Source: Octopus vulgaris
Taxonomy: Eukaryota
DNA length: 64,000 nt
Direction of reading: 5' to 3'
NCBI GenBank assembly: GCA_951406725.2
Contig: OX597834.1
Location: 8,432,001 to 8,496,000, forward strand
Part shown: piece after piece, positions 6,791-7,911 of the stretch
Numbering within the stretch: position 1 is the stretch's first letter
Layout of the letters: every line of letters starts with the position of its first letter
Position numbers and translations under genes: made by a program
The notes under the pieces: model-generated
The model's input: the letters and a program-made list of their open reading frames with translations, nothing else
Told to the model about the DNA's origin: nothing
The model's database searches: none

Positions 6791-7471
6791 ATATATATAT
6801 ATATGTATCTATGTATGTACGTATGCGGGTATGCATGTGTATATGCCTTCGTATATAGACATATGTACTACTCCCAATAAATATACATACATACATAAAC
6901 GCATATATGTATGTGTGTGTGTATGCATGTACACATGCAGTAACATTTGATTTCCTTGGAGAGAAGATGGAAAGGTCGATCGGTATGGATGTTCAATGAA
7001 ACAAGTGATTGTTTAAATCGGAGCAAGTAGCAATATTAAATTCAACACTGAGATTGTTTAGTTTTATTTTACTCTTTAACTTTTTTGTGTAATATTTATT
7101 TAAATGTAACACTTTGGATATGAATGTTTCATTCTCTTTCTATGTGTGTGTGTATATATATATATATATATATATATATATGTGTGTGTGTGTGTATATA
7201 TATATATATATGTATTTATATACATATATACATATATACATATATAACACATATACATATATACATATATGTATATATATATATATATATATATATATAT
7301 ATATATATATATATATATATATATATATATATATATATATATATATATATATATATATATTATATATATATATATATATAATATTAATTAAAGACAAAAC
7401 CACTATTTTGCAAAACAAACAAGGAAAGACTTAATCAATACATAAAATTTTAATAAAAAGTAAAAAAACCG

Positions 7472-7514
7472 CCACTACAATTGTTTCATGTCTTGAACGA
7501 CAATCTTCAGGTGG
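7472..7514 (-). ncRNA. Minimal type I hammerhead ribozyme
   Basis: Minus strand: ccac-CTGAAGA-ttgtc gttcaa gacat-GAAAC-AATT-GTA-gtgg. Confidence 0.75.
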
Positions 7515-7559
7515 ATTTCCGATTTTCAATTTATTGAAACTGATTTGAAAATCGGAAAT

Positions 7560-7602
7560 CCACCTGAAGATTGTCGATCAAGACATGAAACAATTGTAGT
7601 GG
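7560..7602 (+). ncRNA. Minimal type I hammerhead ribozyme
   Basis: ccac-CTGAAGA(7564-7570)-ttgtc gatcaa gacat-GAAAC-AATT-GTA-gtgg. Stem I ccac/gtgg, palindromic stem III ACAATTGT, predicted cleavage after A7598. Confidence 0.78.
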
Positions 7603-7911
7603 CGGTTTTTTTAAACTTTTTATTAAAATTTTATGTATTGATTAAGTCTTTCCTTGTTTGTTTTGCAAAATAGTGGTTTTGTCTCTAATTAATATTATAT
7701 AATATTTTACTATAAAATTGGATTTAATCCTAAATCTGATTTTTTCCCTGTAAATTTGGATTTATTCCCTAATATTTATTATTATTATATATATATATAT
7801 ATATATATATATATATATATATACATATATATATATATACATATATATATATATACACACATATATATATATATATATATATATATACACACACACACAC
7901 ACATATATATA

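What the first reader, a model, noticed from the sequence alone, without database searches (positions are those of the whole stretch)
7380..7785. 150-bp palindrome encoding hammerheads on both strands
Near-perfect inverted arms place an intact type-I hammerhead core on each strand (7472-7514 minus, 7560-7602 plus). A transcript from either strand would contain a ribozyme and its antisense, so it could fold as a long dsRNA hairpin (ribozyme off; possible ADAR or Dicer substrate) or self-cleave. The simplest origin is an inverted PLE terminal repeat; any regulatory role is inference.
Basis: partly seen in the sequence, partly recalled or inferred. Interest (0 to 1): 0.72.

Follow-up and report, generated by a model that had tools for sequence, protein, structure and literature searches.

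The report
Spliced Penelope leaders inserted head-to-head
This palindrome is two intron-less copies of the front end of a young Penelope-type jumping gene, joined back to back in a TA repeat, so its twin predicted ribozymes are likely an insertion by-product, and its many sister copies likely record how these elements copy themselves.

Summary
Observation confirmed: 155-bp inverted arms (2 substitutions, one 2-nt indel) with a type-I hammerhead motif on each strand. They are two copies of the 5' leader (pLTR) of a Penelope-like element (PLE) with Hydra-clade motifs, an 840-aa RT/GIY-YIG ORF and hundreds of copies. Both arms lack the element's ~1-kb GT-AG intron exactly. The right arm carries an 85-nt tail that the left lacks, and 71 of 75 short sister pairs show this same one-tailed, one-tailless rule, which argues against a fold-back artefact. 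Opposite-strand hammerhead pairs and inverted pLTRs with tails are published PLE features. What the family adds is mechanism: spliced arms need a sense mRNA template (against the published antisense self-priming idea), and arm geometry excludes simple fold-back in 24 of 71 pairs. The likely origin is priming from both nicked strands at two fixed RNA sites. No host function, transcription or cleavage is shown; in a read-through RNA the hairpin is predicted to silence the ribozyme. This scan reported the same reading before on other DNA of this genome.

The parts
7375..7523 (-). Left arm: exon 2 of the PLE 5' leader, tailless form (ends at unit position ~160-168 in TA repeat)
   Evidence: unit numbering 1 = window 7538
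7472..7514 (-). Type-I hammerhead motif of the left arm; predicted cut between 7476 and 7475
   Evidence: descriptor; layout matches the Hydra-clade HHR table in PMC8557442 File S2
7524..7534 (-). Exon-1 remnant of the left arm (at least 6 nt; 11 nt if the copy slipped between two short direct repeats of exon 1); no splice acceptor present
   Evidence: comparison with parent L044; slippage is inference
7533..7550 (+). Exon-1 remnant of the right arm (18 nt), joined directly to exon 2 at 7550/7551
   Evidence: parent L044 has the donor GT at 3989 and the acceptor AG at 5030 between the same two sequences
7551..7701 (+). Right arm: exon 2 of the leader, part shared with the left arm
7560..7602 (+). 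Type-I hammerhead motif of the right arm; predicted cut after 7598
7702..7785 (+). About 85-nt PLE tail, present on one arm only; in full elements it ends about 50 nt before the ORF ATG
7273..7374 (.). (TA)n target, left flank
7786..7885 (.). (TA)n target, right flank
   Evidence: 219 of 225 terminal arm ends of the family abut (TA)n

Best explanation
The palindrome is one recent insertion of two intron-less copies of the hammerhead-bearing 5' leader of a Penelope-like retrotransposon, joined head to head in a (TA)n tract, likely made when the element's enzyme nicked both target strands and primed reverse transcription from each at two fixed sites on spliced sense RNA. Shown: family membership, exact intron loss, the one-tailed/one-tailless rule and the (TA)n targets. 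Inferred: both priming sites lie upstream of the ATG, so a spliced mRNA that starts in exon 1 would yield only short ORF-less leader copies like this one, while full-length, intron-keeping copies would come from unspliced read-through RNA. The hammerhead is the element's own motif, predicted to cut only as a dimer or with protein help. Its presence on both strands is a by-product, and in any read-through RNA the perfect hairpin is predicted to keep it off.
For: Parent: L044 and 20 longer stretches show unit - ORF - long 3' region - unit, with a period of 5.6-6.3 kb; 10 of 20 hold a complete 821-852-codon frame. Intron: GT-AG, 1006-1125 nt in 15 of 18 donor-acceptor pairs. Genome-wide exact patterns give 109 spliced junctions and 74 intact acceptors. 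Of 73 spliced arms, 70 stop within 28 nt of the donor, 12 of them at 27-28 nt, at an initiator-like TCACTT (Inr consensus recalled). All 15 units that run on into an ORF keep the acceptor (11 by script, 4 by eye). 3' ends are bimodal: 114 of 245 arms end at 158-182, 126 at 243 or beyond (15 of these are internal), 5 elsewhere. Short head-to-head pairs: 71 of 75 have one tailed and one tailless arm, 2 have both tailless, 2 are unclassifiable; there are 0 tail-to-tail pairs. In 24 of 71 pairs the tailed arm starts more than 10 nt 3' of the tailless arm's start, and in 3 of these the arms barely or do not overlap, so one arm cannot be a fold-back copy of the other. Arms share the allele at polymorphic site 40 in 41 of 43 pairs, against about 49% discordance expected from random templates. 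In vitro, the Anolis PLE protein cuts and extends both strands and starts at two internal sites that bound the tail (PMC11167929).
Against: No RNA evidence: splicing and the start site are read from DNA copies only. This window's own pair is one of the 2 of 43 pairs that differ at site 40, and its + arm has an allele combination seen in 1 of 41 spliced arms and 1 of 18 unspliced ones. So this insertion either used two different RNAs or mutated once afterwards. Two spliced arms (L091, L168) extend upstream of the inferred start, so read-through RNA can be spliced, and why long copies are almost always unspliced remains unexplained. Target-site duplications cannot be read inside (TA)n. No contig listed crosses this locus's own junction. 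Pfam, NCBIfam and PDB sequence searches gave no significant match for the ORF.
Confidence: 0.8

Rival explanations
1. Same element, but the inverted arm arises by self-priming or fold-back (on an antisense template, as proposed for Adineta PLEs, or by a cDNA copying itself).
For: Proposed in PMC3846280 Discussion for head-to-head PLE junctions. Arms share alleles in 41 of 43 pairs. In 47 of 71 short pairs the geometry would allow it.
Against: An antisense RNA would not be spliced at the sense GT-AG intron, yet 73 of 245 arms are spliced. In 24 of 71 pairs the tailless arm holds sequence absent from the tailed arm, and a tailless first arm cannot template a tail.
Confidence: 0.08
2. The hairpin has been kept by the host as a regulatory dsRNA or switchable ribozyme (editing or small-RNA substrate).
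For: A transcript of either strand is predicted to fold as a near-perfect 155-bp hairpin (-225 to -231 kcal/mol). PLE copies give antisense small RNAs in Adineta (PMC3846280).
Against: The insertion is young (mean arm-arm divergence 0.73% over 47 pairs). The same layout occurs at 75 sampled loci. No host exon was evident in the window.
Confidence: 0.05
3. The short unit is a separate non-autonomous element (retrozyme- or MITE-like) with its own intron-less master copy, mobilised in trans.
For: Spliced short copies are numerous (109 exact junctions) and fall into two linked haplotypes (24 and 15 of 41). Animal retrozymes derive from PLE pLTRs (bioRxiv 10.64898/2026.07.22.740005, part 1 of 5).
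Against: Both main haplotypes also occur in intron-bearing long copies (7 and 2 of 18). Copies are head-to-head rather than in head-to-tail arrays. Junctions differ at every locus, so the palindrome does not move as a unit.
Confidence: 0.05
4. Assembly fold-back artefact.
For: No read or contig was shown to span this junction.
Against: The arms differ at 3 places, one being a family polymorphism. The asymmetric tail follows a 71-of-75 rule. Contigs of run X2 show other head-to-head joints of the family (15 of 46 joints listed).
Confidence: 0.02

Closest known systems
Hydra clade of C-terminal-EN Penelope-like elements (Craig et al. 2021, PMC8557442; sections 3 and 11, passages, supplement file 1 parts 1-2 and search hits), including Penelope-13_HM and Hydra-1_Obim
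   Same: DKT, CxCX5C linker, no CCHH, CxxC and CxH in the EN, (TA)n targets, and a hammerhead of the same layout. Penelope-13_HM is listed with a 5'-truncated inverted copy and a hammerhead on each strand.
   Different: Repeat unit 5.6-6.3 kb with a ~1-kb intron, against generally under 3 kb. RWK reads KWK. Tail about 85 nt, against 30-40. Not Hydra-1_Obim itself: its N-terminus and HHR differ. Spliced genomic copies are not mentioned in the parts read.
[quoted passage not shown]
   Same: Short stem I, unpaired base before stem II, palindromic helix III, predicted dimer activity. The paper reports 'dual min-HHRs' 100-700 bp apart on opposite strands, and an intron end next to helix I in D. virilis.
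   Different: Here the intron ends 9 nt upstream of stem I and is absent from both arms. The paper showed no monomer cleavage and low dimer cleavage for its motifs; this one is untested.
Poseidon of Anolis (PAc; Frangieh et al. 2024, PMC11167929; parts 1-2 of 4)
   Same: Two internal RT start sites bounding the tail, both strands nicked and extended, AT-rich target, hammerhead dispensable for insertion in vitro.
   Different: Different clade. PAc start sites lie inside the ORF and are not homologous to the target; here both ends lie upstream of the ATG at TA-rich motifs that resemble the (TA)n target.
Penelope of Drosophila virilis (Schostak et al. 2008, PMC2377424; passages) and Adineta Pen families (PMC3846280; passages, Discussion)
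   Same: Promoter and start site in the pLTR, intron in the 5' UTR, inverted pLTR with an optional tail, TCACT initiator-like motif.
   Different: Intron of 75 bp there, about 1 kb here. The passages say the majority of copies keep the intron; here spliced leader-only copies are abundant.

Membership tests
EN+ Penelope-like elements | Single ORF with RT and C-terminal GIY-YIG endonuclease | tested here: met
   840-aa ORF with YRDD and a VYIG/GIY-YIG-type C-terminus. Atlas features score 0.93-0.96 to RVT_1/HTH_animal clusters and 0.95 to a cluster with 11% GIY-YIG (leads only). No significant Pfam, NCBIfam or PDB match.
EN+ Penelope-like elements | pLTRs in partial tandem and inverted 5' copies | tested here: met
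   Unit lies upstream of the ORF and at the 3' end; tandem and inverted layouts in L065-L084.
EN+ Penelope-like elements | Optional tail at one end | tested here: met
   71 of 75 short pairs have the tail on exactly one arm; about 85 nt.
EN+ Penelope-like elements | Spliceosomal intron in the pLTR / 5' UTR | tested here: met
   GT-AG, 1006-1125 nt in 15 of 18; precisely absent in 73 of 245 arms. Shown from DNA only.
Hydra clade | DKT in place of DKG | tested here: met
   SDKTRN in P0001 against the definition.
Hydra clade | CxCX5C linker, no CCHH within GIY-YIG, CxxC and CxH around the conserved E and N | tested here: met
   CTCRDKSNC; one Cys only between the GIY and YIG equivalents; CYLC and CRH.
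Hydra clade | N-terminal RWK motif | tested here: inconclusive
   RIKWKAF here against RMRWKAF in Hydra-1_Obim: a conservative change.
Hydra clade | (TA)n insertion preference and canonical HHR | tested here: met
   219 of 225 terminal ends abut (TA)n; core intact in 146 of 156 arms spanning the motif; layout as in File S2.
Hydra clade | Length generally under 3 kb (typical, not defining) | tested here: not met
   Period 5.6-6.3 kb.
Hydra clade | Placement in the RT phylogeny | not tested
   No tree built; reference proteins were not available as session sequences.
Type-I hammerhead ribozyme (functional) | Conserved core, three stems, NUH site | tested here: met
   Cofold of two copies gives the dimer with intermolecular stems I and III at -20.2, against -7.4 per monomer. 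Monomer z-scores -0.25 and -0.59. Rfam models do not score it.
Type-I hammerhead ribozyme (functional) | Self-cleavage | not testable with these tools
   Indirect only: 5' truncations pile up just 3' of the motif.
Non-LTR retrozymes | Head-to-tail tandem non-coding units, no own ORF | tested here: not met
   Unit is the leader of an ORF-bearing element and lies head to head.

The most novel reading that the evidence does not exclude
This family's insertions are a genomic record of how Penelope-like elements integrate: both nicked strands of a (TA)n target prime on sense RNA from one source, one at each of two fixed sites upstream of the ATG. Spliced mRNA then yields only ORF-less head-to-head leaders, and intact elements come only from unspliced read-through RNA. 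PLE 'intron retention' and inverted pLTRs would be consequences of priming geometry, not of an antisense template, and part of the templates would be ribozyme-cut.
Probability: 0.55. Interest if true: 0.62.

Novelty: new variant of a known kind. Interest (0 to 1): 0.4.

Why it matters
The locus itself is ordinary transposon debris, and twin opposite-strand hammerheads in PLEs are published. The family matters because how PLEs form inverted pLTRs and keep introns is called unresolved in the papers read (PMC8557442, PMC3846280). A young family with intact ORFs, an exact splice scar and a strict tailed/tailless rule gives a direct substrate for testing the two-strand, two-site priming model in vitro.

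Tried and rejected
Rfam: nothing at gathering score; the miRNA-precursor matches at E<=10 are all below gathering and reflect any long hairpin. Pfam, NCBIfam and PDB: no significant match for the ORF; the only Pfam row, Clathrin_H_link at E 0.056, was rejected. Sequencing runs: 20 of 24 listed runs hold the unit, no RNA holder listed; this is no evidence on expression. Contigs of 4 runs could not isolate this locus from its sisters. RNA-level splicing was not examined and stays open. Host context: 127 stop-to-stop ORFs of 90 aa or more were microsatellite frames, SINE or LINE pieces by eye; short exons were not sought. Earlier-findings search by sequence returned nothing. One linkage pattern and one part returned nothing through pattern errors and were redone. 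Naiad was rejected (EN is C-terminal). Nematis was considered from memory and dropped once the Hydra motifs fit. Literature: searches showed no paper describing spliced genomic PLE copies or the tailed/tailless rule. Arkhipova et al. 2003 and Evgen'ev and Arkhipova 2005 were not read, and PMC2377424 says only that 'the majority' keep introns, so intron-less copies may be in print. The Octopus vulgaris repeat paper (PMC13282606, passages) has no hammerhead mention; its supplements were not read.

Full report
Observation. The arms 7375-7529 and 7545-7701 are reverse complements with two substitutions and one 2-nt indel. Rfam does not score them. Both flanks are (TA)n. The stretch 7702-7785 belongs to the right arm only.

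It is a repeat family. A DNA search of the own genome scored 40 of 1101 candidates and returned 69 matches, many as head-to-head pairs. Exact patterns give 87 copies of the hammerhead and 494 of a 43-nt downstream stretch, with 0 for the reversed controls.

The parent. Pairs separated by 1-3 kb led to L044, which holds a long RT/endonuclease frame followed by about 2.8 kb that ends in the same unit. A protein search scored 111 of 14476 candidates and listed many copies at 93-98% identity. In 20 stretches of 10 kb, the unit lies about 50 nt upstream of the ATG and again at the far end, with a period of 5.6-6.3 kb; 10 of the 20 hold a complete frame of 821-852 codons. The protein has DKT, CxCX5C, no CCHH, and CxxC and CxH in the endonuclease, as defined for the Hydra clade (PMC8557442 section 11). 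The hammerhead has the layout tabulated for that clade. Profile libraries miss the protein; Atlas features point to RT and GIY-YIG clusters. No tree was built. Earlier notes of this scan call the host an octopus; I did not test that.

Both arms are spliced. In long copies the 5' end of the unit is interrupted by a GT-AG intron (L044 3989-5030; 1006-1125 nt in 15 of 18 donor-acceptor pairs, the others 561, 1694 and 1904). In the window the two sides are joined exactly at 7550/7551. I examined 245 distinct arms from 174 loci plus the window, after dropping hits under 85% identity, under 28 nt, or within 130 nt of a locus end. Of these, 73 were spliced, 52 unspliced, 109 scored as truncated and 11 unclear. 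The loci were picked by several searches, so these are not genome proportions. Exact patterns give 109 spliced junctions and 74 acceptors genome-wide. Seventy of 73 spliced arms stop within 28 nt of the donor; two extend clearly further and a third scored 31. The limit falls at an initiator-like TCACTT (consensus recalled; an Inr-like TCACT is described in Adineta pLTRs). All 15 units that run into an ORF keep the acceptor.

Two ends, one of each. Arm 3' ends fall in two groups: 114 at positions 158-182 and 126 at 243 or beyond (15 of them internal), with 5 elsewhere. Of 225 terminal ends, 219 abut (TA)n. Of 98 head-to-head pairs within 6.5 kb, 89 have one tailed and one tailless arm, 3 are tailed twice (one arm of each runs into the ORF), 2 are tailless twice and 4 are unclassifiable. 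Among 75 short pairs the count is 71, with no tail-to-tail pair. In 24 of the 71 the tailed arm starts more than 10 nt further 3' than the tailless arm, which a fold-back copy cannot produce. Arms agree at polymorphic site 40 in 41 of 43 pairs, so both usually come from one RNA or one source locus. The window's pair is one of the two exceptions. Its right arm has an allele combination found in 1 of 41 spliced and 1 of 18 unspliced arms: either two templates or one later mutation.

Mechanism. The best fit is the in vitro behaviour of the Anolis PLE protein, which nicks and extends both strands and starts at two internal sites bounding the tail (PMC11167929). Here (inferred) each strand of a (TA)n target primes at one site, the two cDNAs run toward the RNA 5' end and are joined head to head. 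Both sites lie upstream of the ATG, so spliced mRNA gives only leaders, and intact elements need read-through RNA. The splice scar requires a sense template, against the antisense self-priming model (PMC3846280). Unexplained: why long copies are almost always unspliced.

The ribozyme. The core is intact in 146 of 156 arms that span it. Of 9 polymorphic sites in positions 14-240, 4 lie in loop II and none in the core or stems I and II. The monomer folds no better than shuffles. Two copies cofold as the classic dimer, and inside the palindrome the hammerhead fold costs +71.9 kcal/mol. Published minimal PLE hammerheads show no monomer and low dimer activity (PMC4209133). In the loci taken's list, 5' truncations fall at 62-71 in 19 of 59 cases and inside the motif in 3 of 59. 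That fits cut templates or a folding block, but the uniform null ignores AT-rich microhomology.

Against a host function or an artefact. The insertion is young (0.73% mean arm divergence), the layout is generic, and no host exon was evident. No read spanning this junction was seen, but run X2 shows other head-to-head joints of the family.

Comparison and verdict. Dual opposite-strand hammerheads, inverted copies with a one-sided tail and a Hydra element with a hammerhead on each strand are in print. Spliced leader copies and the strict pairing rule were not found in my searches, with two key older papers unread. I reached this reading before opening earlier findings; several unreviewed notes on other loci of this genome say the same and are not independent support. 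Verdict: a real, explained PLE insertion with a mechanistically useful family record; interest 0.4.

Noticed in passing
window 3456-3742: Second head-to-head insertion of the same family without hammerheads: tailless arm 78-168 (-) and tailed arm 63-253 (+). The + arm begins 1 nt after the predicted ribozyme cut.
   Followed up: yes
window 32590-32974: Unrelated ~385-bp palindrome with a type-I hammerhead motif near its centre (32758-32802, minus). The centre has at least 40 copies at 94-97% in the genome (40 of 2129 candidates scored), with fragments at 49644-49741 and 53470-53531.
   Followed up: partly
window 18350-18524 and 18847-19021: Exact 175-bp direct duplication; a weaker hammerhead-like descriptor hit at 18482-18545 (minus) overlaps its end.
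   Followed up: no
L124:562-879, L129:629-1035, L133:595-940, L156:607-914: Arms truncated at the T-run just 3' of the hammerhead carry several reiterated copies of that short run at the junction, like repeated slippage at a template end.
   Followed up: partly
L136:717-1143, L154:651-1089: Both arms show an exon junction 4 nt shorter than the usual spliced form, perhaps from a source copy with an altered donor.
   Followed up: no
L065:3910-6432 (P0001, about residues 495-605): Asparagine-rich low-complexity stretch between RT and endonuclease, recalling the N-rich inserts of Adineta Penelope ORFs.
   Followed up: no
L044:2880-4490: The long 3' region holds ~360-bp internal repeats at about 79% identity, and some copies carry exon 1 twice.
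   Followed up: no
G000 hits at 52-55% identity: A second, more distant PLE family with open frames up to about 960 codons.
   Followed up: no
window 28460-29539: Fragments of a LINE-type reverse transcriptase on the minus strand, broken by (TA)n (type judged by eye).
   Followed up: no
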